This document shows positions 27,983-64,000 of a stretch of 64,000 nucleotides of DNA, piece after piece. Every line of letters starts with the position of its first letter. The stretch's first letter is position 1. The notes beneath the pieces are model-generated. The model did no database searches, was not told where the DNA came from, and saw only the letters and a list, made by a program, of their open reading frames with translations. The position numbers and the translations under genes are program-made. Source of the stretch: Corallococcus sp. bb12-1 (lineage in GTDB: Bacteria; Myxococcota; Myxococcia; Myxococcales; Myxococcaceae); assembly GCF_026626765.1 (NCBI RefSeq), contig NZ_JAPNJZ010000012.1, forward strand, positions 77,012-141,011. The letters are read 5' to 3'.

Positions 27983-28075
27983 AGGTAGGACGGGCCGCGG
28001 AGTAGGGTCCGGGACACGAAGTCGGTTTGGCAGTTTGTGTGTAGGAAGCGGCCGCAGCACCACAATCGAATATCT

Positions 28076-28159
28076 GGAGGGATACCCAAGCGGCCAAAGG
28101 GAGCAGACTGTAAATCTGCCGGCTCTACGCCTTCGATGGTTCGAATCCATCTCCCTCCA
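28076..28159 (+). tRNA. tRNA-Tyr (anticodon GUA)
   Basis: GGAGGGATACCCAAGCGGCCAAAGGGAGCAGACTGTAAATCTGCC...TCCCTCCA. Long variable arm, anticodon loop CUGUAAA. Confidence 0.9.
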
Positions 28160-28168
28160 CTCTGCAAT

Positions 28169-28244
<76 letters not shown>

Positions 28245-28265
28245 GCCGTTGTAGTGAATCGCCAA

Positions 28266-28341
<76 letters not shown>

Positions 28342-28357
28342 TTTTTCGAGGAGTGTC

Positions 28358-29548
<1,191 letters not shown>

Positions 29549-29829: not shown

Positions 29830-29905
29830 AGGCCAGTAGCTCCAACGGTAGAGCAGCGGTCTCCAAATCCGCGTGTTGGGGGTTCGAATCCCTCCTGGCC
29901 TGCCA
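29830..29905 (+). tRNA. tRNA-Trp (anticodon CCA)
   Basis: AGGCCAGTAGCTCCAACGGTAGAGCAGCGGTCTCCAAATCCGCGTGTTGGGGGTTCGAATCCCTCCTGGCCTGCCA. Anticodon loop CUCCAAA. Confidence 0.88.
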
Positions 29906-48563: not shown

Positions 48564-48641
48564 ACCCGGACGCCGTGCCGGGTCAGGCTCCCGTGTTTCA
48601 CTGCGTCCAACGTGGCCCACCATCCCGCCCGGGAGGGACCG

Positions 48642-49934
48642 ATGAGCGACCCGAGACCTGATGCGACGCCCCCCACCTCCGCGAGGGTCCGGGGCCTGGA
48701 GCAGATCGACCGGCTGTCCGTGCCGCTGCCGCACGGCACCGAGGTGACGACGCGCGTGGAGCGCGTGGCGTCCGCCGGGCGCCGCATCCCGCAGGGCGTG
48801 GTGGGCCGCGTCGTGCGCGCGCATGACGGTGGCTTCGATGTGCAGATCGTCGGCGTGGGCGAGGTGTGGTTCGCGCGCGACGAACTGGTGCCCCGGCGCG
48901 TGGGACAGGTCCAGTTCGCCCAGCGGCGCGAGGCGGCCTGGAGCGCGCTGCGACCGTGCGTGGTACTGGAGACGCGCGTGGGCAGCCACGCCTGGGGGCT
49001 CGCGGACGAACGCTCCGACGTGGACGTGCGCGGCGTGTTCGCGCTGCCCCTGCCGTGGACGCTGGGGTTGGGACAGGCGCCGCAGGACCTGGTGAGCGCG
49101 GATGGCAGCACCACGTACTGGGAGGTGCGCAAGACGGTGGAGCAGGCCCTGCGCGCGGATCCGAACACGCTCGAAACGCTGTTCGTCCTCGGTGCGACGG
49201 CGTCGGACGAACTGGGCGAGTGGATGCTCGAAGCGCGCGAGGCGTTCGTCTCCAAGGCCATCTTCGGCAGCTTCGGGCGCTATGCCATGAGCCAGCTCGA
49301 CAAGCTCACGCGCAGCCAGCGGCTGGCCGAGCACCGCGACCTGCTCCTCGCGTGGCTGTGCGAGGACCCCACGCCAGACCTGGACGATGTGGCCCGGAGG
49401 CTGGCCGCCGTGTCGCCCCGGAGCGCGCCCACGCCCGAGGACGGGGTGCTCGCCGCGAAGACGTACGTCAAGCAGCTCTACCGTTCGCTCTGGGACCAGG
49501 GCCTGCTCGCGGCCAACGACTTCGCGGCGCTGACGGCGTACGCGCGCGGTGGCGGCCAGCGCCCTCCGTCCGCTCGGGAGCTGCGGCCGAAGAATGCCTA
49601 CAACCTGCTGCGCCTGGTGGCGCTGGCGACGGGGTGGCTGCGCGACGGGGTTCCTACCTTCGAGGCGACCGGGGCGTTGAAGGCGCGGCTGCTCGACATC
49701 AAGGGCGGGCAGGTGCCGCTGGAAGAGGTTCTGCGCGACGCGGAGGCGATGGCGCCCGCGCTGGAGGTCGCGCACCGCGAGAGCCGACTGCCGGAGCATC
49801 CGGACTACGCTCGCGCGGATCGGCTGTTGCGACGGGTGGGGGACGAGGTGGCCCGGCGCTGGGTGCTGAAGACGCCCGGACCGTTGGGGCGTGACGCGCC
49901 GGAGGCCCCGGCGCTGGAAGGAGGGACGGAATGA
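48642..49934 (+). CDS. Pol-beta-superfamily nucleotidyltransferase (RlaP-like) with about 100-aa N-terminal extension
   Basis: hG[GS]x9-13Dh[DE]h motif VGSHAWGLADERSDVDVRGVF. 430 aa. The N-terminal extension has a small beta-rich segment (…VVGRVVRAHDGGFDVQIVGVGEVWFARDELVP). Confidence 0.7.
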   Translation: MSDPRPDATPPTSARVRGLEQIDRLSVPLPHGTEVTTRVERVASAGRRIPQGVVGRVVRAHDGGFDVQIVGVGEVWFARDELVPRRVGQVQFAQRREAAWSALRPCVVLETRVGSHAWGLADERSDVDVRGVFALPLPWTLGLGQAPQDLVSADGSTTYWEVRKTVEQALRADPNTLETLFVLGATASDELGEWMLEAREAFVSKAIFGSFGRYAMSQLDKLTRSQRLAEHRDLLLAWLCEDPTPDLDDVARRLAAVSPRSAPTPEDGVLAAKTYVKQLYRSLWDQGLLAANDFAALTAYARGGGQRPPSARELRPKNAYNLLRLVALATGWLRDGVPTFEATGALKARLLDIKGGQVPLEEVLRDAEAMAPALEVAHRESRLPEHPDYARADRLLRRVGDEVARRWVLKTPGPLGRDAPEAPALEGGTE

Positions 49935-50719
49935 AGGGCACGATGACGGAGCATCAGCAGCGGATGGCGGACCGGGTGCTGGATGAGGAATCGCGCAGGC
50001 GCGAGCACCTGGTGGTCTCGCTCTCCGGCGCGCATGCGTACGGTTTTCCCTCGCCGGACAGCGACCTGGATCTCAAGTCCATCCACATCGCGTCCACCAG
50101 CGCGCTCCTGGGCCTCCAGCCCCGCCAAGTGAACGCCGAACGGCTGGAGGTGCTGGAGGGCGTGGAGGTGGACTACTCGTCCAACGAGCTGCAGCCCGTG
50201 CTGCTCGGCATCCTCCAGGGCAACGGCAACTACATCGAGCGGGTGCTGGGGGCCATCCCCGTGCGCGCCCTCCCGGAACTGGAGGCCCTGCGTCCCCACG
50301 TGCGGGCCGTGCTGTCGCGCCGCATCCACCGGCACTACCGGGGCTTCGCGCAGGGCCAGCTCCGCGAGTGGGAGAAGAGTGGCTTCCGCTCCGCGAAGAA
50401 GCTGCTGTACGTGCTGCGGACCACGCTCACCGGGACGCATGCGCTGCGCACGGGCGAGGTGGAGACGGACGTCACCGTCCTGCTGGAGCCGTACGGCTTC
50501 GGCGATGCCCATGCGCTGGTGGAACAGAAGCTCCGGGGCGAGCGCAGTGAGCTGCCCGCTGAACTCAGCGAGCGGTGGCAGGGCGAGGTGAAGCGGGCCT
50601 TCGAGGTGCTCGACGCGGCGGACGTGGACTCCCAGCTCCCCCTGGAGCCTCCGGCCCTGGCCGTGGCCGCGCTCGAAGGGTGGATGCTCGACGTGCGGCG
50701 ACAGCGGTTCGGCGCCTAA
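49931..50719 (+). CDS. Pol-beta-superfamily nucleotidyltransferase (RlaP-like), canonical length
   Basis: LSGAHAYGFPSPDSDLDLKSI motif. 262 aa. ATGA overlap with the upstream paralog indicates translational coupling. Confidence 0.7.
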   Translation: MKGTMTEHQQRMADRVLDEESRRREHLVVSLSGAHAYGFPSPDSDLDLKSIHIASTSALLGLQPRQVNAERLEVLEGVEVDYSSNELQPVLLGILQGNGNYIERVLGAIPVRALPELEALRPHVRAVLSRRIHRHYRGFAQGQLREWEKSGFRSAKKLLYVLRTTLTGTHALRTGEVETDVTVLLEPYGFGDAHALVEQKLRGERSELPAELSERWQGEVKRAFEVLDAADVDSQLPLEPPALAVAALEGWMLDVRRQRFGA

Positions 50720-50823: not shown

Positions 50824-53058
50824 ATGAGCATGCAGGGTGGCGCCGGAGAAGATCCCGACCGGGGGCGGCGCATCGGAAAATACGAGATCCTCACCCGCCT
50901 CTCGATGGGAGGGATGGCGGAGCTGTTCCTCGCGTTCACCTCCGGCCCCGGTGGCTTCCGCAAGTTCGTCGCGGTGAAGCAGATCCTCCCCGACATCAAG
51001 AAGGACGACCAGTTCGTCAAGATGTTCCTCGACGAGGCGCGCATCACCGCCGCCTTCTCGCACGCGAACATCGGACAGGTGTTCGACCTGGGGGAGGAGG
51101 ACGGCGAGCTGTACCTCGCCATGGAGTTCCTGCCCGGCCAGAACCTGGAGCAGGTGGTGAAGATGGCGGCCAAGCGCGACTACGCGCTGCCGCTGGGCTT
51201 CAGCGCCCGCGTGGTGCGCGACACCTGCCTGGGCCTGCACTACGCCCACCACTTCATGGATCCGTCGGGCCGCCCGGTGGCGGTGGTGCACCGGGACGTG
51301 TCTCCGAAGAACGTGATGATCACCTACGACGGCGTCGTGAAGGTGATCGACTTCGGCATCGCCAAGGCGCGTGGCAAGCTGGGCCGTACGCAGGTGGGCA
51401 CCGTGAAGGGGACCAGTGGCTACATGTCCCCGGAGCAGGTGCGCGACAAGGGGCTGGACGGCCGCAGCGACCAGTTCTCCACGGGCGTGATGCTGCACGA
51501 GCTGATGGTCGGGCAGCGCCTGTTCAACGCGCCGGGCGAGGCCGCCGTGATGATGCAGATCGTGGACGGGGAGATTCCCGTGCCGCGCTCGCTCAACGCG
51601 GCGATCCCCGAGGCCCTGGAAACCGTGGTGCTCAAGTCCCTGTCGCGGGATGCCGCGCAGCGCTTCGGCACCTGCCGCGAGATGGCGCGCGCCATCGAAG
51701 CCTCGCTGGGCTCCGAGCTGTACGACGAAGACCAGATGACCGCCGTCATGGGCGAGCTCTTCGAGGAGAAGCGCCAGAAGACGCGCACCCTCCTGGAACT
51801 GGCCAGCCGCGCCGAGGACGCCCGCGTCAGCGAGGCCGCCGGGGCGCTGCAGGTGGAGGAGGGCGGCGACACGGCCACCGCGCGGGTGCAGTCGCCGCAC
51901 GCGGGGGCCTCGGCTGAGAACGCCGCGCCGTCGTTCCGACCCACGCCCGTCCGGCGCACGAGCGCCGAGCCGACGACCCCGCCGCGTGCGGGTGCGACCC
52001 CGCGTCCCGCCACCGAGGCCGCGGCCCCGCGCAGCGACACGCCTCCGATGACGCCGCGAGCGCAGCGGCCCGCCGACGCCGCGTCCGCTCGCCCGATCCG
52101 TCCTCCTGCCGACGCCGCCCGGGCGAACCGGCCCCGTCCCGTCGCCCGCCCGGAGGCTTCCGAGGCCCGGGCCACGCCTCCCGACGACGCGCTGCTGGAT
52201 CCGCCCAGCGACCTCCAGACCCAGCGCTTCCGCACCCGGCCCGGGCGCTCCGGTGCGGGGCCCGCGCGGCCCTCCCGTTCGGTAGATGAGCCGGCGGAGA
52301 CGCCCCCGGCTCGCGAGCGTTCCGGCTGGCTGGGCAAGGTGGTGCTGCTCCTCGTCCTGGGCGGCGTGGGCTATCTGGCGACGCTCGAACCGGTGCGACG
52401 GCTGTTCATGCCGGCGTACGAGTCCGCCCGCCTGTGGGTGAAGGCGGAGCTGGATCCGGCCCCGAACGTGGACCCCGCGAAGGATGGGACCTGGCCGCCG
52501 AAGCCCTCCGGGCCTCCGCCGGGTTTCGTGCAGAAGACCGAGCCCGAGAAGGCACCCGAAGTCGAAGCGCCTCCTCCCGAACCGGTCGTGGAGGCTCCGC
52601 CTCCCGAAGAGCCCAAGACGCCCGTCGCCAAGGGCGGACGCAAGCCGAAGGTGACCGCTCCGGCGGAGAAGATTGTCGCGGCGAAGACGGAGACCCCGGC
52701 CCCGAAGCCCGCGCCGGAGCCCTCGCAGCGCGCGCCGGAGCCCGTCACCACCGTCACGCAGACGCCGGAGGTCGCGGAGGTGCTGGACACGAGCACCGCC
52801 AAGGGCGCCAAGAAGGCCGGCCTGGGCTGGCTGACGCTCTACACCGTGCCGAAGAACGCGGCCGTGTTCGACGGTTCAACGCAGCTGGGCACCTCTCCGC
52901 TGATCAAGCTGGCGACCCCCGTGGGCACCTACCGCCTGCGCGTGGTGGATCCCCAGGACCCGGGAGGGACGAGCAAGCTGTTGTCCGTTCCCATCCGTCC
53001 GGGCGAAGTGACCCGGTTGCAGATTCGACTGGCCGACCTCCCGCCCTACACGGAGTGA
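50824..53058 (+). CDS. Serine/threonine protein kinase (Hanks type) with Pro/Ala-rich linker and C-terminal PEGA domain
   Basis: VAVK, HRDVSPKN, DFGIAK and GTSGYMSPE motifs. A low-complexity linker of roughly 300 aa. C-terminal …LTLYTVPKNAAVFDGSTQLGTSPL…GTYRLRVV. Confidence 0.9.
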   Translation: MSMQGGAGEDPDRGRRIGKYEILTRLSMGGMAELFLAFTSGPGGFRKFVAVKQILPDIKKDDQFVKMFLDEARITAAFSHANIGQVFDLGEEDGELYLAMEFLPGQNLEQVVKMAAKRDYALPLGFSARVVRDTCLGLHYAHHFMDPSGRPVAVVHRDVSPKNVMITYDGVVKVIDFGIAKARGKLGRTQVGTVKGTSGYMSPEQVRDKGLDGRSDQFSTGVMLHELMVGQRLFNAPGEAAVMMQIVDGEIPVPRSLNAAIPEALETVVLKSLSRDAAQRFGTCREMARAIEASLGSELYDEDQMTAVMGELFEEKRQKTRTLLELASRAEDARVSEAAGALQVEEGGDTATARVQSPHAGASAENAAPSFRPTPVRRTSAEPTTPPRAGATPRPATEAAAPRSDTPPMTPRAQRPADAASARPIRPPADAARANRPRPVARPEASEARATPPDDALLDPPSDLQTQRFRTRPGRSGAGPARPSRSVDEPAETPPARERSGWLGKVVLLLVLGGVGYLATLEPVRRLFMPAYESARLWVKAELDPAPNVDPAKDGTWPPKPSGPPPGFVQKTEPEKAPEVEAPPPEPVVEAPPPEEPKTPVAKGGRKPKVTAPAEKIVAAKTETPAPKPAPEPSQRAPEPVTTVTQTPEVAEVLDTSTAKGAKKAGLGWLTLYTVPKNAAVFDGSTQLGTSPLIKLATPVGTYRLRVVDPQDPGGTSKLLSVPIRPGEVTRLQIRLADLPPYTE

Positions 53059-54135: not shown

Positions 54136-56233
54136 TCTGCTCCTGGAAATCGGTGCCGAGGAGATCCCGGCGTCGTTCATCGTGCCCGCGCTGGACGACT
54201 TGAAGCGCGTGCTCACCGAGCGCATGGCCGACGCCCGCCTGAAGCACGGCGAGGTGCGCACCTTCGGCACGCCGCGCCGGCTCGCGGTGTGGGTGCGCGA
54301 CGTGGCGGACGCGGGCGAGGACGTGACGAAGGAGGTGCTGGGGCCCAGCGCCAAGGCCGCCTTCGACGCGCAGGGCAAGGCGACCAAGGCCGCGGAGAAG
54401 TTCGCGGAGAGCCTCAAACTGTCGGTGGACGCGCTGGGCCGCACGACGACGCCCAAGGGCGAATACGTGTCCGCGCGCGTGGAGGAGAAGGGCCGTCCGG
54501 CGGACGCCATCCTCCAGGACGCGCTGCACTCCGCGGTGCACGGCATCAACTTCAAGAAGTCCATGCGCTGGGGCGACGTGGACATGTCCTTCGCGCGCCC
54601 GGTGCAGTGGCTGCTGGCGCTCCTGGGCGACACGGAGCTGCCGGTGGTGTTCGGCGACGTGAAGAGCGGGCGGACCACCTACGGCCACCGCTTTCTTTCG
54701 CCCGGCCCCATCACGCTGAAGGCGCCCGCGGACTACGAGGCGACGCTGGAGAAGGCGCACGTGCTGGCGGACATCGGCAAGCGCCGCGCGTCGCTCGTGC
54801 AGAAGGTGACCGCCGCGGCGAAGGCGGCGGGTGGCCAGCTCCTGGAGGACGAGGGCCTGGTGGACCAGGTGACGAACCTGGTGGAGCTGCCGAGCCCCGT
54901 GGTGGGCCGCTTCGACGAGCGCCACCTGGACCTGCCGCCGGAGGTGCTGGTGCAGGAGATGAAGAGCCACCAGCGCTACTTCTCGCTGGTGGACGCTCAG
55001 GGCAAGCTCCTGCCGCGCTTCATCGCCGTGTCCAACACGCCGGTGCGCGACGAGCAGTTGTCGCTGCGCGGCTACGAGCGCGTGCTACGCGCGCGGCTCG
55101 CGGACGGGCGCTTCTTCTTCGACGAGGACCGCAAGACGCCGCTGGGCGACCGCGTGGAGAAGCTGGGCCGCGTGGTGTGGCAGAACCAGTTGGGCACGTA
55201 CCTGGAGAAGGTGGAGCGCTTCCGCTCGCTGGCGGGCTGGCTCGCGCAGGCCACGGACAGGGCAGGGGAGGCGGCCACGGTGGAGCGCGCCGCCACGCTG
55301 TCCAAGGCGGACCTCGTCACCGGCATGGTGGGCGAGTTCCCGGAGCTCCAGGGCGTGATGGGCCGCGAGTATGCGAAGGCCGGCGGCGAGCCGGACGCGG
55401 TGGCCCTGGCCATCTCCGAGCACTACCTGCCCCGTGGTGCCGAGGACGCGCTGCCGACGCAGGACGCGGGCGCGCTCATCGGCCTCGCGGACCGGCTGGA
55501 CTCGCTGTGCGGCATCTTCGCCATCGGCAAGGCCCCGTCGGGCGCGGCGGATCCGTTCGCGCTGCGCCGGGCGTGCCTGGCCATCATCCGCATCGTGCTG
55601 GGACGGGGCTACCGCTTCAGCCTGTCGGCCGCGGTGGATGAGGCCCTGGGCCTGCTCGCGCCGAAGCTGGCCAACGTGAAGCGCAAGCCGGGAGAGGCCG
55701 CGCCGCGCGAACAGGTGCTGGAGTTCTTCCGCGGCCGTCTCAAGGCGCTGTGGGGAGAAGAGCACCGCACGGACGTGGTGGAGGCGGTGCTGGCCGTGGG
55801 CTTCGACGACCTCGTGGCGGCGAAGAAGCGCCTGGAGGCCCTGAGCCTGCTCGTGGGCCATGCGGACTTCCAGCCGCTGGCGGCCGCCTTCAAGCGCGTG
55901 GTCAACATCGTGGAGAAGCAGGGCAAGGACGTGGCGGGCGGGCAGACCAACCCGCAGCGCTTCACCGACGAGCCGGAGAAGAACCTCCACACCGCCTTTA
56001 CCCAGGCGCGTGACAAGGTGGGCGTGCACGTGCGCGCGGACGACTTCGCCGGGGCCCTGCGCGAAATCACCGGCCTGAAGCCCGCCGTGGACACCTTCTT
56101 CGACAAGGTGATGGTGATGGCCGAGGACAAGGACCTGCGGGAAAACCGCATCCGGTTCCTCACGGAGATCGGCGCCCTGTTCAACCAGGTGGCGGACTTC
56201 TCCAAAATCCAGGCGGAAGTCGCCGCCGCCTGA
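54125..56233 (+). CDS. glyS: Glycine--tRNA ligase beta subunit
   Basis: 702 aa, GTG start overlapping glyQ by 11 nt. Colinear with GlyS. Confidence 0.9.
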
Positions 56234-56395
56234 AGCTTTACCGCCGGAGCGTGCCCGTTCCCTCGCCAAGGGAGCGGCACGCGTTTCCGGGCTTTGCGGC
56301 GTGGGTGGGTGTCGTCGGGAGGGCGAACGGGAATAGCGACAGCCCTATTCAGTTGCCCGGGGTAGGGCCCCGTTCCTACACTCCGCCCCCCTCTG

Positions 56396-57931
56396 ATGCG
56401 CCTCCCTTTCCTGACCCCCGCGCTGTTGCTCCTCGCGGCGTGTTCGATCGAATCTGAACCGAACCCGCCCCCGTCCACCCGCTTCGTGTACCCCAGCGGG
56501 GTGGCGTTCTGGCGCCCACCCGCGGCTGGCGGTCCCTCGGCGAGCAACGGCTACCTCTTCGTCGCGAACGCGAACTTCGACAACTGCTACGACTCCGGTT
56601 CGGTGGTGGCGCTCAACCTGGACGCGCTGAGCACGCAGGCGGATGGCCAGTCCGTCCCGGTGCCCAGGCTGGGGACCGCCGTGCCAGCAAGCCCGCTTGT
56701 CTTCGAGTCCCTGTCTGCGTCGGCGGACTCGCTCGTGCAGATCCGCAGCTTCGCGGGTGACATGGGGATGTGGGTCAACCCGGCCAGCGGACTGCCGCGC
56801 CTGTTCGTGCCTTCGCGCGCGGAGGGCAACAACCTGTACGCGGTGGACGTCAGCCTGTCGGCGGATGGCGCGCCGGTGCTCAACTGCGTGCAGGGCGGCG
56901 TGGACTGCCAGACGGGGGCGCTGTCGCTCACGGACGACATCCCGGCGTCGCTCCAGGACTCGGGCCGTCCGGGCCTGCCCCGCGCGCCGTCACCCATTGG
57001 CGTGACGGTGGATGACGCGAACGGCACGCTGTACGTGACGCACTCGGAGGCGGCGGATTCGCCCGCGAACTCCAGCACCAACTTCGAGAACTATCTGGTC
57101 ACCCTGAAGGCGGAGAACCCCACGCGCGACACGCTGGGCTTCATCCCGCTGTCGCCGGAGGGCTACATCTACGGCGGCTCGGATTCGACGACGGTGGGGA
57201 CCGGTTACCTCTTCGTGTCGGGCCGCAACTTCGTGGCGGGCGACAGCGGCACGGTGGGCGCGAACTTCGTCCTGCGGCTGGTGGACAAGAACGTGCCCGA
57301 GCGCATCCTGGAGCCCCGCCTGTCCCTGGCCTACCGCATCCGCGAGGCGCGCGCGGTCCGGGTGGTGTCCCGGCCGGTGACGGCGGCGGAGCTCGCGGTC
57401 CGTCCCTACTTCGTGCGCGAGCGGCTGTACGTGCTGGCGCGGGGCCCGGACACGATGCTCACGATCGACTTCGAATACGACGCACCGCCGGGCGAGCAGT
57501 CCACGGACCCGTCGTTCCGGGTCATCTCCGCGGTGCCCATGCCCGACGGCGTCAGCGACATGCAGCTCATCCGCCGGCAGGGCGCGCCGACCAGCACCGA
57601 CACCAACATCCTCGCGGTGACGAGCACCGGCGACAGCGCGGTGTCCCTCTACGACGAGGCGCTCGGCCAGGTCGTCGTCCAGGTGCCGCTCGTCAATTCG
57701 CAGAACCAGACCAGCAACCCGTCGCAGGCCTTCGCGGTGACGGTGGACAACCCGGCCGGCGTGAACGCGGCGCGGCTGTTCGTGACCAACTTCGGAGACG
57801 GGCAGGTGGCCATCGTGGACATCCCCGACCTCACCCGTCCGCAGGACGCGCGGCTGGTGGCACGACTCGGCACGCAGCAGCAGCGGGATCCGAACCAGGG
57901 CACCAGCGTGTGCCAGGAGAACCAACCTTGA
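56396..57931 (+). CDS. Hypothetical lipoprotein, beta-propeller-like repeats
   Basis: Lipobox LLLAACS. Repeated blade-like segments (YLFVANANFD…GSVVALNL; LYAVDVS; LYVTHSE; LFVTNFGDGQVAIVDI). Confidence 0.65.
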   Translation: MRLPFLTPALLLLAACSIESEPNPPPSTRFVYPSGVAFWRPPAAGGPSASNGYLFVANANFDNCYDSGSVVALNLDALSTQADGQSVPVPRLGTAVPASPLVFESLSASADSLVQIRSFAGDMGMWVNPASGLPRLFVPSRAEGNNLYAVDVSLSADGAPVLNCVQGGVDCQTGALSLTDDIPASLQDSGRPGLPRAPSPIGVTVDDANGTLYVTHSEAADSPANSSTNFENYLVTLKAENPTRDTLGFIPLSPEGYIYGGSDSTTVGTGYLFVSGRNFVAGDSGTVGANFVLRLVDKNVPERILEPRLSLAYRIREARAVRVVSRPVTAAELAVRPYFVRERLYVLARGPDTMLTIDFEYDAPPGEQSTDPSFRVISAVPMPDGVSDMQLIRRQGAPTSTDTNILAVTSTGDSAVSLYDEALGQVVVQVPLVNSQNQTSNPSQAFAVTVDNPAGVNAARLFVTNFGDGQVAIVDIPDLTRPQDARLVARLGTQQQRDPNQGTSVCQENQP

Positions 57932-60087
57932 AGCGCGGCATCCCTGCTGCCCTGTTGCTGAGCGCCGCGAGTCTCACGAGCGCCTGCTCCGACACCACCT
58001 CCACGGCGGGCGCCGCGGGCCTGTCGGGCACGTACGACGTGGTGCTCTCCAACCAGCTCGTCTTCGTCACCTCCCAGGACCGGGACGAGCTGCGCGTGTT
58101 GGACCTCACGCGCTCGCCCCGCGAATACATCCCCGCGCCCAACCCGCTGGAGCCCCTGGCCATCCCCGTCGTCGCGCGGCCCGACTCGCTCACGCGCGAC
58201 GTGGGCTACGACGCCGAGGGCAACGACGTGTCCGGTCCGTACATCTACGCCCGCAGCTCCGGCGGGCGGAGCATCTCCGTGGTGGCCGCCGACCGCGCGC
58301 GCCTCAACGAGGTGACGCGGCTGTCCACCGGCCAGCTCATCACCGCCTTCGCCGCGCACGCCCCGGTGGCCGAGGGCGCGCCGAGCGTCCTGTACTACGC
58401 GCTCCAGACCCGCCCGGAGGCCGCCGAAGCGCTCTGCGGTCCCTTCGGGGGCGGGGTGGTGATGCGCCAGGACCTGCCGGCCCCGGACGCCTTCGACGCC
58501 GCGGCCCTGCCGGCCGCGCTGCCCGTCTTCTGCCTGCAACCGGCGGACACGGTGCTGTCCATGATCACGCTGCCCGCGCGGGCGGGCGTGACGGACTCGC
58601 TGGTCATCGCCATCCGCAACGTGACGGGCACCAGCCGGCTCGTGCGCGCTGTCGCGGATGGCGCTTCGGTGGAGGTCGCCTACAAGCGTCCGCGCCCGGC
58701 GCCGTACACGGTGCCGACGTACACGGACCTGGTGGACATCCCGGCGCGGCTCGTCACCACCCATCCGGCCTACGGGCCGACGGCCACCCGGGTGGCCCAG
58801 GGCCGGTACGTATACGTGGTGCTCGACGAGCTCACGTGCGTCTCCGCGGATTGCGAGGGCGTCATCGCGCTCGACAACGGGCCGGATCCCCTGGTGCCGT
58901 CCGCGACGCCGGTGCTCGCGCGCGACGTCACCGGCGCGCCCATGCTGACGCTGAAGCCGTCCGGCGGCCTGCCCACCGGGCTCACCCTGCGCGCGGGCCT
59001 GGAGGTGCGCGAGTTCCTGTCGGACAGCATCGCGTACACGTCCCCCATCCCGCTGTTGGGCATCGTGCCGTCGTCCAACGGACAGGTCACCCTGTTCCGC
59101 GCCGACGAGCGCCGCGCGTTCAACCTGGACCGGGATCCCATCACGGGCCCGCTGCCTGCCACGGTGACGGTGGAGCTGCGCGACGGCTCGGAGCTCATCC
59201 GGCCGGACCAGGTCCGGAGCATCGAAGTCAATCAGCCGGGGTGTCCGCAGCGCGCGGACGTGGCCAATGCGGACGCCTTCCTGTGTGACGGGACGCTGCC
59301 CTCCGGGACCTACCGCTTCGTCTTCCAGGGCATCCTGCCGGGCCTCGTCAATCTGGCGCGCGACCTGAACGTGGAGGATCCGCCCTTCCTGGTGGAGACG
59401 TCGCTGGTCGCGGCCCGCACCGTGGTTCCGGGCGACTCCCTCGTGCTGGCGAACAACGTGGGGGCCTGCGAGCAGACCGTCAAGGTGCTTCGCCTGGAGG
59501 ACCTGGGGGATGGTCGCACCCAGCTCTTCCCAGACCTGGGGGACGCGGCCACCGTCAGTGCCCTGGAGACGTGCGCCACGTATCCGTTCTTCTCCGTACG
59601 CGCCGGCCCGACCGTGAAGCCCTTCGTCCTCTACTCGGGCCTGGAGACCAGCGACTCCTACGTGCAGCGATTGAACGTCAACGAGATCTACACGGTGTCC
59701 AGCTTCCTGGATTATTACTACCACGCTGATGGCTTCGACCTGGGCCTGGACCCGCCCAAGTCGCCCACGACCTTCGTGCCCGCGCCGCTGTCGCTCACCC
59801 TGACGGCGAAGTTTGGAGGGGCCGATCGGCTCGGCGTCGGCGACCGCTACGTGGTGACGCTGCTGCCGCGCTTCCGGCGCTTCATCTTCGGCGTGGACAC
59901 CGGGTCCGGCAGCTCGCTGACCAACCTGGGGGCCTACACCCTGCCTGGCTCCGTGGTGGCCACGGACGTGGGTGGCTCCAGTCTGGCCTACATCGCGTAT
60001 CCTTCCGCGGACGGCGTGCTCCAGGTGGCCCTGGAGCAGATCAGCGACAACGCGGACAACCTCCAGTACCTCCGGGCCTTCCAGTAA
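57910..60087 (+). CDS. Hypothetical lipoprotein, beta-propeller-like, paralog-like neighbour
   Basis: GTG start overlapping the upstream stop by 22 nt (a TTG at 57928 is an alternative). Lipobox LTSACS. Segments LVFVTSQDRDELRVLDL and YVYVVLDEL resemble propeller blades. 725 aa. Confidence 0.6.
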   Translation: MPGEPTLKRGIPAALLLSAASLTSACSDTTSTAGAAGLSGTYDVVLSNQLVFVTSQDRDELRVLDLTRSPREYIPAPNPLEPLAIPVVARPDSLTRDVGYDAEGNDVSGPYIYARSSGGRSISVVAADRARLNEVTRLSTGQLITAFAAHAPVAEGAPSVLYYALQTRPEAAEALCGPFGGGVVMRQDLPAPDAFDAAALPAALPVFCLQPADTVLSMITLPARAGVTDSLVIAIRNVTGTSRLVRAVADGASVEVAYKRPRPAPYTVPTYTDLVDIPARLVTTHPAYGPTATRVAQGRYVYVVLDELTCVSADCEGVIALDNGPDPLVPSATPVLARDVTGAPMLTLKPSGGLPTGLTLRAGLEVREFLSDSIAYTSPIPLLGIVPSSNGQVTLFRADERRAFNLDRDPITGPLPATVTVELRDGSELIRPDQVRSIEVNQPGCPQRADVANADAFLCDGTLPSGTYRFVFQGILPGLVNLARDLNVEDPPFLVETSLVAARTVVPGDSLVLANNVGACEQTVKVLRLEDLGDGRTQLFPDLGDAATVSALETCATYPFFSVRAGPTVKPFVLYSGLETSDSYVQRLNVNEIYTVSSFLDYYYHADGFDLGLDPPKSPTTFVPAPLSLTLTAKFGGADRLGVGDRYVVTLLPRFRRFIFGVDTGSGSSLTNLGAYTLPGSVVATDVGGSSLAYIAYPSADGVLQVALEQISDNADNLQYLRAFQ

Positions 60088-60150
60088 CTGGGCGGGCCCG
60101 AACGGCTCTGCTATCGTTCCCCACGTTCAGCATTTCCCGAGCCAAGACCG

Positions 60151-61011
60151 ATGATCGATCAGAACTCCCGTCCCGCACGCAAGGTCGGCATCGCCGAGCA
60201 CCTGTGGGAGACGTACGAAGAGATGGCCCAGCAGATGGGGTCGGATCGCGACGCGCTGATCAACCAGGCGCTCTTCATGTTCGCGCGCCTCAACGGCTTC
60301 ATCGACGTGAAGGTGAAGGCCGAGCCCTCCGTGGCGGCGGTGCCTGCCGCCACGCCGACCCCCCGTCCAGCCTCCCCGCCGCCCGCGGCCGCCGCGTCCA
60401 AGGGCGCGCCGCCGGTGCTCGCGCCCGCGCGCGCCGAACCCGCCCGGGCCGCCCCGCGCAACGTGGAGGAGCGTCCGTCCTCCAACGGCCTGGACAATGA
60501 TCCGGTGCGCCGCGAGGTGGCCGAGCGCGTCCTGGAGACGGCCGCCGAACTGGAGCGGCTCATCAAGGGCAAGAATGATCCGCCGCCTCCGTCCGCCGAC
60601 GACATGATCGAGGAGGAGGACGAGGATCCCCTGCCCGACCAGGAGGATCCGCCGCTCGAGGACGAGCTGGAGGACGAGCCCCCCGACGAGGCCGAGGAGG
60701 AGCCGCCGGAGGAGGTCGACGAGGAGGAGGGCGCGTCGCTCTACCTGGTCACCGAATCCGGTGAGCAGGAGAAGATCATCAAGGACCGCTACGTCATCGG
60801 CCGCGGCAAGCACTGCGACTTCGTCATCAACTCCGGCAAGGTGTCGCGCGAGCACGCCGTCATCGCCCGCGACGGCGGCGAGTTCTACATCGAGGACCTC
60901 GGCTCCTCGAACGGGACCTGGTTCAACAAGCAGCGCATCAAGCGCCGCAAGGTCGAGGACGGGGACGAGTACTTCATCTGCAGCGAGAAGATCCGCCTCG
61001 TCATCCACTGA
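60151..61011 (+). CDS. FHA-domain protein (N-terminal small helical domain, acidic linker, C-terminal FHA)
   Basis: C-terminal FHA signature YVIGRGKHCDFVINSGKVSREHAVIARDGGEFYIEDLGSSNGTWFN. Central D/E/P-rich linker. Confidence 0.8.
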   Translation: MIDQNSRPARKVGIAEHLWETYEEMAQQMGSDRDALINQALFMFARLNGFIDVKVKAEPSVAAVPAATPTPRPASPPPAAAASKGAPPVLAPARAEPARAAPRNVEERPSSNGLDNDPVRREVAERVLETAAELERLIKGKNDPPPPSADDMIEEEDEDPLPDQEDPPLEDELEDEPPDEAEEEPPEEVDEEEGASLYLVTESGEQEKIIKDRYVIGRGKHCDFVINSGKVSREHAVIARDGGEFYIEDLGSSNGTWFNKQRIKRRKVEDGDEYFICSEKIRLVIH

Positions 61012-61114
61012 TGACGCAGTGCCCCCCGGTTCGAGGGTCGTGTTCAGCATTTGACGGGCTTGGGGCCTCCCTGGTTTGATGGGGGTCGCCTGCCCGCCTT
61101 GGGACAGGTGCCGA

Positions 61115-61651
61115 ATGACACCTGCTCAATCCGTGCTGTGGACGATTCTGGGAGTGGCCCTGGTGCTTGCGGTGGTGACCGACGTGCTGCGCCGGCTCAT
61201 CCCCAACGTCGTGACCTATCCGCTCATCGTGCTGGGGCTCGGGGTGCGCGGGTGGGCGGAAGGGGTGGGCGGGCTGGAGTCGGGGCTTTTGAGTGGGGTG
61301 CTCGCGGGCACGGGACTGGCGCTGCTGCTGGTCCCCGGCGCGCTGCGCGGGCGCATGGGGTGGGGTGACGTCAAGCTGATGGCGGGCGTGGGCTGTGTGC
61401 TGGGGTTCCCGACGGTGCTCGCGGCGGCGGCCTTCATCTCGTTGGTGGGAGCGCTCCAGGCGGTCGTCACGCTGCTATGGCAGGGTGCCGTCTGGGACAC
61501 GCTGGCGGCGGTGGCCCGTCGCTGGGCGGTGCGGGCGAAATGGATGCGCGAGGAAACCTCGCCCTCGCCCGTGCGACACATCCCCTACGGCGTCTCCATC
61601 GCGCTCGGGACTTTCTGGGCCATGTGGTGGCAGCAACAACATCTGGGATAG
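61115..61651 (+). CDS. A24-family prepilin peptidase (CpaA/TadV-like)
   Basis: Polytopic membrane protein with the two catalytic Asp contexts (VVTDVLRRLIPN and GWGDVKLMAG). Confidence 0.8.
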   Translation: MTPAQSVLWTILGVALVLAVVTDVLRRLIPNVVTYPLIVLGLGVRGWAEGVGGLESGLLSGVLAGTGLALLLVPGALRGRMGWGDVKLMAGVGCVLGFPTVLAAAAFISLVGALQAVVTLLWQGAVWDTLAAVARRWAVRAKWMREETSPSPVRHIPYGVSIALGTFWAMWWQQQHLG

Positions 61652-61697
61652 CGCGCGGACCGTCAGCGCGCACGCACGCAAGAAGGGGATTCACACG

Positions 61698-63146
61698 ATG
61701 TCCACTCGCTTCACGCACGCCGTAGCGCTTGGCGCCCTCGTCACCCTGGTGGCCAGTGCCCCCGCCCTGGCCCAGGAGGGCAGCACCGTCAGCCTCGGGG
61801 TGGGTACTCAGAAGGTGCTCACCATCCCCGGCCTGAGCCGCGTCGCGCTGGGCGACCCGTCCATCGCCGAGGTGAAGACGCTGGGCACCGGCCAGCTGCT
61901 CGTCACCGGCCAGACGGAAGGCAAGACGACGCTGCTCGTCTGGAAGTCCTCGGGTCAGCGCATCAGCTACCTGGTGACGGTCCGCAAGCAGGACCCCAAC
62001 GAGGTCATCTCCGAAATCAAGCGCCTGCTGGGCGAAATCGAAGGCGTGTCCGTGCGCATGGTGGGTGACCGCATCTACCTGGACGGTCAGGCCTACACCA
62101 CGCAGGACGCGGACCGCATCGAGCAGGTGGTGAGCCTCTATCCGAACGTGAAGTCGTTCGTGAAGATCGCCCCCAACGCCAAGAAGCTGGTGGCCCAGAA
62201 CCTGAACGCGGCCTTCCAGAAGGCGGGCCTGAAGAACGTGCAGGCCAACGTGGTGGGCGCGACCATCTTCCTGGAGGGCTCCGTGGAGAGCCAGCAGGAC
62301 CTGCAGAAGGCGGAGCTCATCACCAAGGCCATCGGCGAGAAGGTGGAGAACCTGCTCGTCGTCGGCATCAAGCGGATGATCCTCTCCGAGGTGCAGTTCG
62401 TTGAAATCCGCCGCAACAGCCGCGACCGCTACGGCATCAAGTACCCCACCGACATCACGGGCGGCCTCACCGGCACGTTGAACCTCACCAAGGCGCTCCT
62501 GCCGTCGGGTGACGCGGTCTCCGACCTCATCCTGGGCGCGACCGGTTCGTCGGAGCTGAGCATCGGCTTCCAGGCCAACGACGGTTACGGCCGCCTGCTG
62601 GCGCAGCCCAAGCTGGTGTGCGCGAGCGGTGAGAAGGCGGAGTTCCTCGCCGGTGGCGAGGTGCCCATCCCGCTCATCACCAACACGCAGTTCACGGTGG
62701 AGTACAAGCCGTACGGCGTCATCCTGAACATCCGCCCCACCGCGGACCGCAACGGCAACATCCAGACGGAAGTGGAGGCCGAGGCCTCCGAAATCGACAC
62801 GTCCGTGTCGGTGTCCTTCGGTGGTTCGTCCGCCATCCCCGGCTTCCGCACCCGCAAGGTGAAGACGAACGTCACCGTGCGCCACGGAGAGACGATCGTG
62901 CTGTCGGGCGTGTTCAGCCACGACGAGCAGAAGGCCGTCGCGAAGCTGCCGGGCCTGGGCAACATCCCCATCGTGGGCGAGCTGTTCAAGAACCGCGCGT
63001 TCGACTCCACCAAGCGCGAACTGGTGATCTTCGTCACCCCGCGCATCGTGAACCCGGACTCGGACAAGGTCCGCAGCATCATCGAGGACGTGAAGACCCG
63101 CTACAAGCAGGCCCGGTCCGAAGTGAACTTCAACATCTTCGACTGA
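61698..63146 (+). CDS. Secretin of a Tad/Flp-type apparatus (CpaC/RcpA-like)
   Basis: Signal peptide. N-terminal CpaC-type pilus-formation domain. C-terminal secretin domain (…GVILNIRPTADRNGNI…; …VLSGVFSHDEQKAVAKLPGLGNIPIVGELFKNRAFDSTKRELVIFVTPRIV). Confidence 0.85.
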   Translation: MSTRFTHAVALGALVTLVASAPALAQEGSTVSLGVGTQKVLTIPGLSRVALGDPSIAEVKTLGTGQLLVTGQTEGKTTLLVWKSSGQRISYLVTVRKQDPNEVISEIKRLLGEIEGVSVRMVGDRIYLDGQAYTTQDADRIEQVVSLYPNVKSFVKIAPNAKKLVAQNLNAAFQKAGLKNVQANVVGATIFLEGSVESQQDLQKAELITKAIGEKVENLLVVGIKRMILSEVQFVEIRRNSRDRYGIKYPTDITGGLTGTLNLTKALLPSGDAVSDLILGATGSSELSIGFQANDGYGRLLAQPKLVCASGEKAEFLAGGEVPIPLITNTQFTVEYKPYGVILNIRPTADRNGNIQTEVEAEASEIDTSVSVSFGGSSAIPGFRTRKVKTNVTVRHGETIVLSGVFSHDEQKAVAKLPGLGNIPIVGELFKNRAFDSTKRELVIFVTPRIVNPDSDKVRSIIEDVKTRYKQARSEVNFNIFD

Positions 63147-63204
63147 CGGGGGAGCCCTTCACGGGCGCCCTGAAAGCGACCGCCTCCGACCCCCGGGCCG
63201 GCCC

Positions 63205-63232
63205 CGCTCCCCTCCCAAGAGGGGGGAGGGTG
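63205..63232 (+). other. GC hairpin in the secretin / FHA-ATPase intergenic region
   Basis: CCCTCCC-AAGA-GGGGGGAGGG inverted repeat. Possible attenuator or processing site. Confidence 0.3.
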
Positions 63233-63313
63233 CCGGCCCGAGAGCTTGCGGGCAGGCGAGCGCGTGCGCAGGAGCCTTTGAGGACGCAGGAGGGCTTGGT
63301 AGCATCCCGACCC

Positions 63314-64000
63314 ATGTTTCTCATCACCCTGGCGGAGAAGGGCGGCGGGACGGAGCAGCGGGAATACCCCAAGAACGAGGTCACCATTGGCCGGCTCGCC
63401 GGCAATGACATCGTCCTCGGCAAGGGGAATGTCTCCAAGTACCACTCCCGCATCGTCGAGAAGGACGGACGCTTCATCATCGTGGACATGAAGTCCACGA
63501 ACGGCACCTTCGTGAACGGCAAGAAGATTGCCGGGCCCATGGTGCTGAAGCCCACGGATCAGGTCTCCATCGGGGACTACATCCTCAACGTCGAAGCGCT
63601 GGAGGACGCGCCGCAGGACGACGCGCAGGGCGAAGAGGCGTACGACGAGGAGCAGGGCGAGGAGGCCTACGAGGAGGAAGAGGCCTACGAGGAGGAGGAG
63701 CCCTACGAAGAGGAGGAGGCTCCGGCTCCCGCCGCGCCCAGCCGCATGCCCGCGTCCATGGCCGCGGCCATGGCGAAGAACAAGAAGAAGGTGGACCCGA
63801 AGCTGGAGCGCTACTCGCGCCTCCAGAAGGAGATCCACGACCGGCTCATCGAGTACCTGGACCTGCGTCGCATGGACATGGACCGGCTCGGGGACGAGGA
63901 GCTGTGGCGCCGCACCGAGAAGGCCATCCGCGACATCATCGACCAGATGGAAGCGGACGGAGAGCTTCCCACGGACGTGGACCGCGAAGAGCTGCTCACC
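63314..64000 (+). CDS. Partial CDS (continues past window end): FHA domain fused to the N-terminal region of a CpaF/TadA-type secretion ATPase
   Basis: N-terminal FHA (…VTIGRLAGNDIVLGKGNVSKYHSRIVEKDGRFIIVDMKSTNGTFVNG…). Acidic EEAYEEE repeats. Then LERYSRLQKEIHDRLIEYLDLRRMDMDRL…, which is typical of the CpaF N-terminal helical domain. No stop within the window. Confidence 0.75.
   Translation, partial: MFLITLAEKGGGTEQREYPKNEVTIGRLAGNDIVLGKGNVSKYHSRIVEKDGRFIIVDMKSTNGTFVNGKKIAGPMVLKPTDQVSIGDYILNVEALEDAPQDDAQGEEAYDEEQGEEAYEEEEAYEEEEPYEEEEAPAPAAPSRMPASMAAAMAKNKKKVDPKLERYSRLQKEIHDRLIEYLDLRRMDMDRLGDEELWRRTEKAIRDIIDQMEADGELPTDVDREELLT
63628..63722 (+). repeat. Short in-frame tandem repeat (GAGGAGG/CCTACGAGGAGGA units) encoding an acidic E/A/Y-rich linker
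   Basis: GAGGAGGCCTACGAGGAGGAAGAGGCCTACGAGGAGGAGGAGCCCTACGAAGAGGAGGAG: imperfect repeats of about 18 nt, visible by eye. Confidence 0.6.

What the first reader, a model, noticed from the sequence alone, without database searches (positions are those of the whole stretch)
60151..64000. Tad/Flp-like secretion-pilus module bracketed by two FHA proteins, resembling the Myxococcus 'Kil' prey-killing apparatus
The gene order is FHA protein, A24 prepilin peptidase, CpaC-type secretin, then an FHA domain fused to a CpaF-type ATPase N-terminus, which runs off the window. This is not a classical Caulobacter-style tad operon. The presence of FHA domains, including one fused directly to the motor ATPase, suggests phospho-threonine-dependent control of a contact-triggered machine. 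As far as I recall, M. xanthus carries a Tad-like 'Kil' system in two clusters that is required for contact-dependent prey lysis, and the neighbourhood here (rpoBC, glyQS upstream) is compatible with cluster 1 of that system. If the sequence is from a different myxobacterium, this would be an orthologous or variant Kil module. The window truncates the cluster, so TadB/C platform, CpaB and pseudopilin genes should lie just beyond.
Basis: partly seen in the sequence, partly recalled or inferred. Interest (0 to 1): 0.8.

Follow-up and report, generated by a model that had tools for sequence, protein, structure and literature searches.

The report
Corallococcus copy of Kil prey-killing cluster I
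This stretch is the Corallococcus copy of a gene cluster already described in Myxococcus xanthus (Kil cluster I), which builds part of a Tad-type pilus machine that kills prey on contact, so it is real but already known.

Summary
Window 60151-64000 encodes, on the + strand, an FHA protein, an A24 prepilin peptidase, a short secretin and the first 229 residues of an FHA-CpaF ATPase.

This is the orthologue of M. xanthus Kil cluster I (mxan_3102-3108) in a Corallococcus, probably sp. bb12-1. The order glyS-lipoprotein-lipoprotein-FHA-kilA-kilC-kilF-kilD-polA is collinear in all 35 related loci held with full flanks. KilC is 87% and KilF 90% identical to M. xanthus. A published table already lists a full Kil set in C. 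coralloides.

Two points are wrong:
- The cluster starts at 56396 with two lipoprotein genes, not at 60151.
- Beyond the window lie the rest of kilF, kilD and polA. The platform, CpaB and pilin genes belong to cluster II elsewhere in the genome.

Novelty is low. Some untested leads came up:
- a ribbon-helix-helix-like N-terminal domain in the MXAN_3104-type FHA protein
- a conserved promoter abutting the kilF start codon, suggesting a leaderless mRNA
- a covarying hairpin before kilA
- a transmembrane segment in KilD, which papers call cytoplasmic
- a partly syntenic receptor Ser/Thr kinase upstream of glyQ

The parts
56396..57931 (+). Lipoprotein gene 1 (511 aa), orthologue of mxan_3102. The signal peptide ends in the lipobox L-A-A-C. 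No Pfam hit.
   Evidence: ORF and GC3 of 0.93. Collinear orthologues at 30-81% identity in 35 loci with full flanks. Same position as the 492-aa gene in M. xanthus CP017171. No Pfam family even at E<=5.
57910..60087 (+). Lipoprotein gene 2 (725 aa), orthologue of mxan_3103. It overlaps gene 1 by 22 nt, as in M. xanthus.
   Evidence: It is the fastest-diverging gene of the block: 40% identity to M. xanthus, against 87-90% for KilC and KilF.
60109..60117 (+). Conserved extended -10-like motif TGCTATCGT, about 33 nt before the FHA gene start.
   Evidence: Conserved as TGnTATCnT across genera in an otherwise diverging spacer. Promoter function is inferred. It fits the monocistronic prediction for MXAN_RS15045 in bioRxiv 10.64898/2026.08.20.745974.
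60151..61011 (+). FHA protein (286 aa), orthologue of mxan_3104. Nearly invariant ribbon-helix-helix-like N-terminal domain (residues 1-50), Pro/Ala-rich linker, invariant helix (117-141), acidic linker, C-terminal FHA (197-285).
   Evidence: Pfam FHA E=8.8e-20. 100% identical to a protein named from Corallococcus sp. bb12-1. Invariant columns listed. AlphaFold2 model: FHA pLDDT above 90, helices 14-28 and 33-47 at pLDDT 54-70. CopG is the only PDB profile hit (E=0.039), and hhalign against CopG gives 83.9% probability. The pThr-binding residues are present: GR217, S232-x-x-H235, N254-G-T.
61051..61080 (+). Promoter-like element before kilA: TTGACG, 18 nt, TTTGAT, with TGG just upstream of the -10.
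   Evidence: Conserved across genera. Coordinates. Function is inferred.
61088..61110 (+). Conserved hairpin ending 4 nt before the kilA start codon. Its 3' arm contains an AGGTG Shine-Dalgarno-like motif.
   Evidence: RNAalifold on 19 sequences from several genera gives 7 consensus pairs, 4 with compensatory double changes.
61115..61651 (+). kilA: CpaA/TadV-type A24 prepilin peptidase (178 aa from the conserved ATG; the mechanical ORF starts at TTG 61076).
   Evidence: Peptidase_A24 E=1.2e-15. Asp23 (in ...VVTDVLRRLIPN) and Asp85 (in GWGDVK) are present. Their catalytic role is my inference from the motif context and from general knowledge of this family. No methyltransferase domain. 72% identical to M. 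xanthus.
61698..63146 (+). kilC: short CpaC/RcpA-type secretin (482 aa) with a Sec signal peptide, pilus N-terminal domain, BON and Secretin domains, and no N0/Secretin_N hit.
   Evidence: 87% identical to M. xanthus. Identical protein on C. terminator contig RAVZ01000379. A Shine-Dalgarno-like motif precedes the start in 46 of 47 relatives.
63195..63239 (+). GC-rich hairpin between kilC and kilF (GGGCCGGCC...GGCCGGCCC), with no T-tract.
   Evidence: A comparable hairpin with a different interior sequence is present in Corallococcus, Myxococcus, Pyxidicoccus, Archangium, Cystobacter and Hyalangium. Its role as terminator, processing site or stabiliser is inferred.
63278..63305 (+). Promoter-like element abutting kilF: TTGAGG, 16 nt, (TGg)TAGCAT, ending 8 nt before the ATG. 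This predicts a leaderless kilF mRNA.
   Evidence: A TAnnnT hexamer ends 6-9 nt before the kilF ATG in 68 of 77 distinct relatives, and almost nowhere else in the 70 nt upstream. The same test gives 0 of 47 for kilC and 0 of 55 for kilD, which carry Shine-Dalgarno-like motifs instead. The generic promoter scan missed it because it scores 8 of 12 against a threshold of 9.
63314..64000 (+). kilF, first 229 codons: N-terminal FHA domain, acidic E/Y-rich linker, and the start of the CpaF-type ATPase N-domain. Truncated by the window end.
   Evidence: FHA E=6.1e-18. pThr-binding residues GR26, S41-x-x-H44 and N63-G-T. Residues 178-229 are 96% identical to the published M. xanthus KilF block. The full-length relative is 588 aa with T2SSE and Walker A, and its closest solved structure is CpaF.

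Best explanation
The region is the Corallococcus orthologue of Kil gene cluster I of Myxococcus xanthus (mxan_3102-3108). It encodes the outer-membrane and motor half of a Tad-like (type IVc) pilus machine used for contact-dependent prey killing.

By transfer from M. xanthus experiments, the mechanism would be as follows:
- On touching prey, KilD and KilF are recruited to the contact site.
- The KilF hexameric ATPase drives polymerisation of the KilP pilin on the KilG/KilH inner-membrane platform, which is encoded in cluster II elsewhere.
- The pilus leaves through the short KilC secretin.
- KilA matures a subset of the tip minor pilins.
- The pilus, with interchangeable tips and together with a needleless T3SS, arrests motility and kills the prey.

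The FHA domains here carry the full set of canonical phospho-threonine-binding residues. They sit on KilF, on the MXAN_3104-type protein, and twice on KilD. They most likely dock these proteins onto Thr-phosphorylated partners, so that the machine assembles only where a kinase signal marks prey contact.

What is shown here: gene content, orthology, domain architecture and conservation. What is inferred: the function in this organism and the phospho-dependence.
For: - Domain calls for all four genes.
- Collinear block glyS-lipo1-lipo2-FHA-kilA-kilC-kilF-kilD-polA in 35 of 35 loci with full flanks, and nothing inserted in the shorter loci. M. xanthus is included.
- Identity to M. xanthus: KilC 87%, KilF 90%, KilA 72%, FHA protein 71%, KilD 58%.
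- The M. xanthus locus used for comparison carries a KilF that is 100% identical to the published KilF alignment block. The window and C. terminator are 96% identical to that block.
- The domain table of the published cluster (FHA; peptidase; BON + pilus-N + secretin; FHA + P-loop; FHA + TPR) matches gene for gene.
- Full-length KilF in the 98.4%-identical contig has T2SSE and Walker A, and CpaF is its best PDB match.
- Experimental roles come from PMC8460266 and PMC12075869.
- A full Kil set, including KilB/G/H, KilP and Tip1, is tabulated for C. coralloides.
- FHA pThr-binding residues are present.
Against: - No experiment exists for Corallococcus.
- Cluster II, kilP, the tip genes and the T3SS* were not seen for this strain, because they are outside the window.
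- The ATPase domain itself lies beyond the window and is known only from a 98.4%-identical relative.
- No paper read here tests FHA phospho-dependence, and some FHA folds (for example the T3SS SctD cytoplasmic domains) act as scaffolds without pThr binding.
[quoted passage not shown] No deletion data for mxan_3102-3104 were found in the Seef 2021 supplements.
Confidence: 0.9

Rival explanations
1. It is an ordinary adhesive Tad/Flp pilus locus, used for surface attachment or biofilm formation, that merely resembles Kil.
For: The core proteins (A24 peptidase, CpaC-type secretin, CpaF-type ATPase) are generic Tad parts.
Against: It is not just similar. It is the positional orthologue of the genetically characterised kil cluster I, at 87-90% identity for KilC and KilF. 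It lacks the contiguous pilin, CpaB, CpaE/TadZ and TadB/C genes of classical tad operons. It carries the Kil-specific FHA-ATPase fusion and the short N0-less secretin (PMC8460266).
Confidence: 0.04
2. The FHA domains are phospho-independent scaffolds, as in T3SS SctD/YscD-type proteins, and contact triggering is achieved some other way. The machine is Kil, but the pThr-switch reading is wrong.
For: Both FHA domains also hit Pfam Yop-YscD_cpl (E=1e-9 to 3e-12). KilD has the SctD-like layout of cytoplasmic FHA, a transmembrane segment and a periplasmic domain. No kinase has been linked to Kil in the papers read.
Against: The Arg, Ser-x-x-His and Asn-Gly-Thr residues that contact pThr in canonical FHA domains are all kept in KilF and in the 286-aa protein, and are invariant across 40 homologues of the latter. 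A receptor Ser/Thr kinase is a syntenic neighbour in three genera.
Confidence: 0.25
3. The 286-aa FHA protein (MXAN_3104 type) is not a part of the machine. It is a phospho-regulated ribbon-helix-helix DNA-binding protein that controls transcription of kil or neighbouring genes.
For: The N-terminal 50 residues are nearly invariant. CopG is the only PDB profile hit (E=0.039). hhalign against CopG gives 83.9% probability. The model has two helices of the right length after an unstructured N-terminal strand region. The gene has its own conserved promoter-like motif and is predicted monocistronic in M. xanthus.
Against: The similarity is weak. Pfam RHH models score only E=0.13-0.2. Model confidence in that domain is low (pLDDT 54-70). 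An RHH fold can also serve only as a dimerisation module.
Confidence: 0.3

Closest known systems
Myxococcus xanthus Kil system, gene cluster I (mxan_3102-3108: two lipoproteins, FHA protein, KilA, KilC, KilF, KilD). Seef et al. 2021 eLife (PMC8460266); Herrou et al. 2025 Nat Commun (PMC12075869).
   Same: Same genes in the same order, with the same flanks (glyQS upstream, polA downstream). Same domain architectures, including FHA-CpaF and the N0-less secretin. 87-90% identity in KilC and KilF.
   Different: Different genus. The accessory proteins diverge much faster: lipoproteins 40-47%, KilD 58%, against a housekeeping GlyS at 86%. No functional data exist for Corallococcus.
Caulobacter crescentus Cpa / Aggregatibacter Tad (Flp) pilus operons
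   Same: Homologous A24 peptidase (CpaA/TadV), secretin (CpaC/RcpA) and ATPase (CpaF/TadA). Solved CpaF is the best PDB match of KilF (E=1.5e-128).
   Different: No FHA domains there. One contiguous operon with pilin, CpaB, CpaE/TadZ and TadB/C. Polar, cell-cycle-controlled adhesion pili rather than contact-site assembly. Here the genes are split over distant clusters and TadZ is missing from the cluster.
Bdellovibrio bacteriovorus and Bradymonadales Kil-like Tad systems
   Same: Same Kil-like Tad clade according to the published phylogeny, with FHA/TPR regulatory neighbours (PMC8460266; bioRxiv 10.64898/2026.07.08.737194).
   Different: Different gene arrangement, TadZ-TadA fusion and polar control in Bdellovibrio. 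Much lower identity.
FHA-dependent post-translational triggering of the Pseudomonas aeruginosa H1-T6SS (PpkA/Fha1/TagH-type)
   Same: A contact- or membrane-perturbation-triggered nanomachine whose assembly depends on an FHA protein downstream of a receptor Ser/Thr kinase. The Kil authors cite it as the analogy.
   Different: Unrelated machine (T6SS against a Tad pilus). In Kil, no kinase-FHA link has been demonstrated.

Membership tests
Kil system, gene cluster I (mxan_3102-3108) | Gene content and order: lipoprotein, lipoprotein, FHA protein, KilA, KilC, KilF, KilD, between glyQS and polA | tested here: met
   tblastn synteny against M. xanthus and 79 other loci gives the pattern S12HACFDP in all 35 loci with full flanks. 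The called genes of M. xanthus CP017171 have matching Pfam content. KilD and polA lie beyond the window and were seen on the 98.4%-identical contig.
Kil system, gene cluster I (mxan_3102-3108) | KilF: N-terminal FHA domain fused to a CpaF/TadA-type hexameric ATPase | tested here: met
   The FHA domain and the first 52 residues of the ATPase N-domain are in the window. T2SSE, Walker A and the CpaF PDB match are in the full-length near-identical relative. The ATPase domain itself is outside the window.
Kil system, gene cluster I (mxan_3102-3108) | KilC: short secretin with pilus-N, BON and Secretin domains and no N0 domain | tested here: met
   Pfam finds PF13629, PF04972 and PF00263 only, with no Secretin_N hit at E<=0.01. 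The protein is 482 aa.
Kil system, gene cluster I (mxan_3102-3108) | KilA: A24 prepilin peptidase of the CpaA/TadV type, with both catalytic Asp and no methyltransferase domain | tested here: met
   Peptidase_A24 E=1.2e-15. Asp23 and Asp85 (GWGDVK) are present.
Kil system (whole machine) | Cluster II (KilB, KilG, KilH, minor pilins), the KilP major pilin and the Tip clusters present elsewhere in the same genome | not testable with these tools
Published for C. coralloides GCF_004104415.1: KilB/G/H at gene indices 4611-4609 and KilP at 2247.
Kil system (whole machine) | [quoted passage not shown] | not testable with these tools
   Needs genetics and microscopy in Corallococcus. Shown only for M. 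xanthus (PMC8460266, PMC12075869).
Classical Tad/Flp operon (Caulobacter cpa, Aggregatibacter tad) | One contiguous operon with Flp pilin, CpaB/RcpC, TadZ/CpaE and TadB/TadC next to the secretin and ATPase | tested here: not met
   No such genes lie between glyS and polA in the window, in its extension, or in any of the 80 related loci.
Classical Tad/Flp operon (Caulobacter cpa, Aggregatibacter tad) | CpaF/TadA-type ATPase, CpaC/RcpA-type secretin and CpaA/TadV-type peptidase | tested here: met
   At the level of these core proteins it belongs to the Tad (type IVc) superfamily.
T3SS SctD/YscD-PrgH family (raised by the Pfam Yop-YscD_cpl hits) | FHA-fold cytoplasmic domain, a transmembrane segment and periplasmic ring-building domains, encoded within a T3SS gene cluster | tested here: not met
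   The Yop-YscD_cpl hits coincide with the FHA domains. The 286-aa protein and KilF have no transmembrane segment. There are no T3SS genes in the block.
Ribbon-helix-helix (CopG/Arc/MetJ) superfamily, for residues 1-50 of the 286-aa FHA protein | An N-terminal beta-strand followed by two helices, forming an intertwined dimer that binds DNA | tested here: inconclusive
   CopG is the only PDB hit (E=0.039). hhalign gives 83.9% probability. Pfam RHH_1 and RHH_4 score only E=0.13-0.2. The AlphaFold2 monomer shows the two helices at pLDDT 54-70 and no strand.

The most novel reading that the evidence does not exclude
Cluster I may carry the still-unknown contact-sensing cascade of the Kil machine. 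In this reading, a receptor Ser/Thr kinase with a periplasmic PEGA-like domain (window 50824-53058, the MXAN_RS15020 orthologue) phosphorylates partners that are read by three FHA proteins:
- KilD, which would be a bitopic membrane protein rather than cytoplasmic;
- KilF;
- the MXAN_3104-type protein, which would be a ribbon-helix-helix/FHA phospho-switchable DNA-binding regulator.

kilF-kilD would be made from their own leaderless transcript.
Probability: 0.15. Interest if true: 0.55.

Novelty: already known. Interest (0 to 1): 0.18.

Why it matters
As it stands, the locus only shows that this Corallococcus carries the standard myxobacterial prey-killing Tad machine. That is expected for a predatory myxobacterium and is already tabulated for the genus.

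The value lies in the comparative by-products. The core parts (KilC, KilF) are under much stronger constraint than the two lipoproteins and KilD. The untested FHA protein has a second, nearly invariant domain. The non-coding signals suggest how the cluster is split into transcription units. These give concrete experiments on the open question of how prey contact triggers Kil assembly.

Tried and rejected
- Generic promoter/terminator scan of 56000-64000: no promoter and no more terminators than in shuffles. The conserved promoter-like motifs were found only by cross-genus comparison.
- Rfam at gathering threshold over the whole window: only six tRNAs, none in the cluster.
- Pfam and NCBIfam on the two lipoproteins: nothing, even at E<=5. 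The published InterPro beta-propeller assignments could therefore not be reproduced with these libraries.
- NCBIfam on the four genes: only sub-threshold generic hits (GspD, PilQ, FhaB, GltG and others), and no Kil-specific model exists.
- Literature search for a kinase-FHA link in Kil: one unrelated Bdellovibrio preprint only.
- The Ser/Thr kinase as an obligatory neighbour: rejected. It is absent from that position in Melittangium and in strain GXIMD 01537.
- A fold search of the AlphaFold2 model was not run, because the domain of interest has pLDDT below 70 and the FHA domain would dominate the matches.
- My first GC3 filter script dropped two real genes through a script artefact. Direct calculation gives GC3 of 0.92-0.93 for them.

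Full report
**What is in the sequence.** On the + strand of window 56396-64000 there are six closely spaced genes with coding-type composition (GC3 0.85-0.94).
- Two genes have lipoprotein-type signal peptides and no Pfam match: 56396-57931 and 57910-60087. They overlap by 22 nt.
- A 286-aa protein with a C-terminal FHA domain lies at 60151-61011.
- An A24 prepilin peptidase follows. The mechanical ORF starts at 61076, but the conserved start is ATG 61115, and the gene ends at 61651.
- A 482-aa secretin with pilus-N, BON and Secretin domains lies at 61698-63146.
- From 63314 an ORF runs off the window. It encodes an FHA domain, an acidic linker and the beginning of an ATPase N-domain.

**Extending past the window.** The secretin is encoded identically on an 8.8-kb contig of Corallococcus terminator CA054A, which is 98.4% identical in DNA to window 61358-64000.
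- There the truncated gene is 588 aa, with T2SSE (E=1.7e-65) and the Walker A motif GGTGSGKTT. Its best solved relative is Caulobacter CpaF (E=1.5e-128).
- It is followed, 7 nt later, by a 736-aa protein with two FHA domains, and then by polA.
- The 286-aa FHA protein is 100% identical to a protein named from Corallococcus sp. bb12-1. That is therefore the likely source of the window.

**Identity with the Kil system.** Seef et al. (PMC8460266) define Kil cluster I as mxan_3102-3108: two lipoproteins, an FHA protein, KilA (peptidase), KilC (secretin), KilF (FHA-ATPase) and KilD (FHA/TPR).
- A scan of one genome per species found 80 loci with a KilF relative.
- In all 35 loci with full flanks the order glyS-lipo1-lipo2-FHA-kilA-kilC-kilF-kilD-polA is collinear. 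The shorter loci show sub-strings of the same order.
- M. xanthus shows it too. Its KilF is 100% identical to the M. xanthus KilF block in the paper's alignment file, and the window and C. terminator protein is 96% identical to that block.
- Identities to M. xanthus are KilF 90%, KilC 87%, KilA 72%, FHA protein 71%, KilD 58%, lipoproteins 47% and 40%. The flanking GlyS is 86% and PolA 71%.
- The RS-numbering in a 2026 operon preprint (glyQ/glyS = RS15025/30, unknowns = RS15035/40, FHA = RS15045, kilA-polA = RS15050-70) fits the same order.
- Herrou et al. 2025 already tabulate a full Kil set in C. coralloides: KilA/C/F/D contiguous, KilB/G/H in a second cluster, plus KilP and Tip genes.

So this is the known system in a sister genus.

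- The published cluster starts about 3.7 kb upstream of the given start, at the two lipoprotein genes.
- The platform (TadB/C = KilG/H), CpaB (KilB) and pilin genes do not lie just beyond the window. kilD follows kilF in every locus that reaches that far. polA then follows, except in Stigmatella, where other genes do. Those parts are in cluster II (mxan_4648-4661) and in further loci.

**How it most likely works.** This is transferred from M. xanthus experiments.
- KilD and KilF form foci at prey contact sites.
- KilF is needed for polymerisation of the KilP pilus.
- KilC, KilG/H and KilB are needed for killing.
- KilA matures a subset of tip minor pilins.
- The pilus with interchangeable tips works together with a needleless T3SS.

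Both FHA domains in the window keep the Arg, Ser-x-x-His and Asn-Gly-Thr residues that contact phospho-threonine in canonical FHA domains. In the 286-aa protein these residues are invariant in 40 homologues. I therefore consider phospho-dependent docking the most likely role. None of the papers I read tests it, and a scaffold-only role remains open.

**Additional observations, not in the papers read.**
1. *N-terminal domain of the FHA protein.* The 286-aa protein (MXAN_3104 type, no mutant data found) has a nearly invariant N-terminal domain of about 50 residues and an invariant helix at 117-141. The N-terminal domain gives CopG as the only PDB profile hit (E=0.039) and 83.9% hhalign probability. 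The AlphaFold2 model shows two helices in the expected places, but at low confidence. This is a ribbon-helix-helix-like module, not proven.
2. *kilF promoter.* A TAnnnT hexamer, often preceded by TGn, ends 6-9 nt before the kilF ATG in 68 of 77 distinct relatives. The same test gives 0 of 47 for kilC and 0 of 55 for kilD, which have Shine-Dalgarno-like motifs instead. With a TTGAGG box 16 nt upstream, this predicts an internal promoter and a leaderless kilF mRNA. A GC-rich hairpin, conserved in position but not in sequence, precedes it.
3. *kilA upstream region.* kilA is preceded by a conserved TTGACG-N18-TTTGAT motif. A hairpin ends 4 nt before the ATG, with 4 of 7 consensus pairs showing compensatory changes.
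4. *Other promoter-like motifs.* Conserved motifs also precede the FHA gene and lipoprotein gene 1.
5. *KilD topology.* In four genera KilD has a central hydrophobic segment (mean Kyte-Doolittle 2.3-2.6) preceded by basic residues, with no Cys before it and exactly ten after it. This suggests a bitopic membrane protein rather than the cytoplasmic protein described.
6. *Neighbouring kinase.* A receptor-type Ser/Thr kinase lies directly upstream of glyQ (50824-53058). It has a Pkinase domain, a transmembrane segment and a weak PEGA hit. Orthologues sit in the same place in M. xanthus (61% identity) and Stigmatella (55%), but not in Melittangium or strain GXIMD 01537. Myxobacteria encode many such kinases (my own knowledge), so this is only a lead.

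**Verdict.** The feature is real and correctly recognised as Kil cluster I. It is an orthologue of a published, experimentally studied system, and its presence in Corallococcus is already tabulated. Novelty: already known. Interest is low. The residual interest lies in the leads above, which bear on the unsolved question of how prey contact triggers assembly.

Noticed in passing
L001 3727-5937 (KilD, just beyond the window end); also L082 14957-17188, L083 14919-17159, L084 14924-17119: KilD orthologues in four genera share a central 19-aa hydrophobic segment (mean Kyte-Doolittle 2.3-2.6) preceded by RR or KRKK. There is no Cys on the N-terminal side (two FHA domains) and exactly 10 Cys in the ~430-aa C-terminal part. 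This looks like a bitopic inner-membrane protein with a periplasmic disulfide-rich domain, whereas the papers call KilD cytoplasmic.
   Followed up: partly
window 50824-53058 (+): A receptor-type Ser/Thr kinase (744 aa) lies directly upstream of glyQ. It has a Pkinase domain (E=2e-34), a transmembrane segment near residue 503 and a weak C-terminal PEGA hit (E=0.0011). Orthologues sit in the same position in M. xanthus (61% identity) and Stigmatella (55%) but not in Melittangium or GXIMD 01537. It is a candidate partner for the FHA proteins, or a chance neighbour.
   Followed up: partly
window 63278-63313 and the same position in L002-L081: A -10-like hexamer sits 6-9 nt before the kilF ATG in 68 of 77 relatives, with no Shine-Dalgarno motif. 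This predicts a leaderless kilF transcript from an internal promoter. More distant relatives (L064, L077, L080) have an AGGAG Shine-Dalgarno motif instead.
   Followed up: partly
window 61088-61110: A hairpin ends 4 nt before the kilA start codon. It is conserved in structure but not in sequence across Corallococcus, Myxococcus, Archangium, Cystobacter and Hyalangium (4 of 7 pairs with compensatory changes). It may mask the AGGTG Shine-Dalgarno-like motif or protect the 5' end of the mRNA.
   Followed up: partly
window 56396-60087 compared with 61698-64000: Divergence within one syntenic block is very uneven. Against M. xanthus the two lipoproteins are 47% and 40% identical and KilD 58%, while KilC is 87%, KilF 90% and housekeeping GlyS 86%. 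Fast evolution of the envelope-exposed accessory proteins would fit a role at the prey interface, or weak constraint.
   Followed up: no
window 56240-56285: A GC-rich inverted repeat (gcgtgcccgttccct...agggagcggcacgc) followed by GTTTCC lies just after the glyS stop codon. A conserved TTGCCC-N18-TACACT motif lies 13 nt before the first lipoprotein gene. Both would argue for a transcription unit separate from glyQS, unlike the operon prediction in the 2026 preprint.
   Followed up: no
L002-L010 (Corallococcus draft assemblies): Nine independent Corallococcus draft genomes all have a contig of about 8.8-9.0 kb that starts inside kilA and ends just after polA. The assemblies break at the same two places, so there may be hard-to-assemble or repeated sequence at both ends.
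   Followed up: no
window 48612-50719 (+): Two adjacent genes with the RlaP (RNA-repair-pathway DNA polymerase beta family nucleotidyltransferase) domain lie between recO and the kinase. They are absent from the corresponding position in M. xanthus, Stigmatella and Melittangium.
   Followed up: no
window 27910-28338, 29830-29902 (+) and 11766-11837 (-): Six tRNA genes, four of them in a tight cluster just upstream of a 414-aa ORF (28304-29548) and the ribosomal-protein/rpoBC region. This is ordinary bacterial organisation.
   Followed up: no
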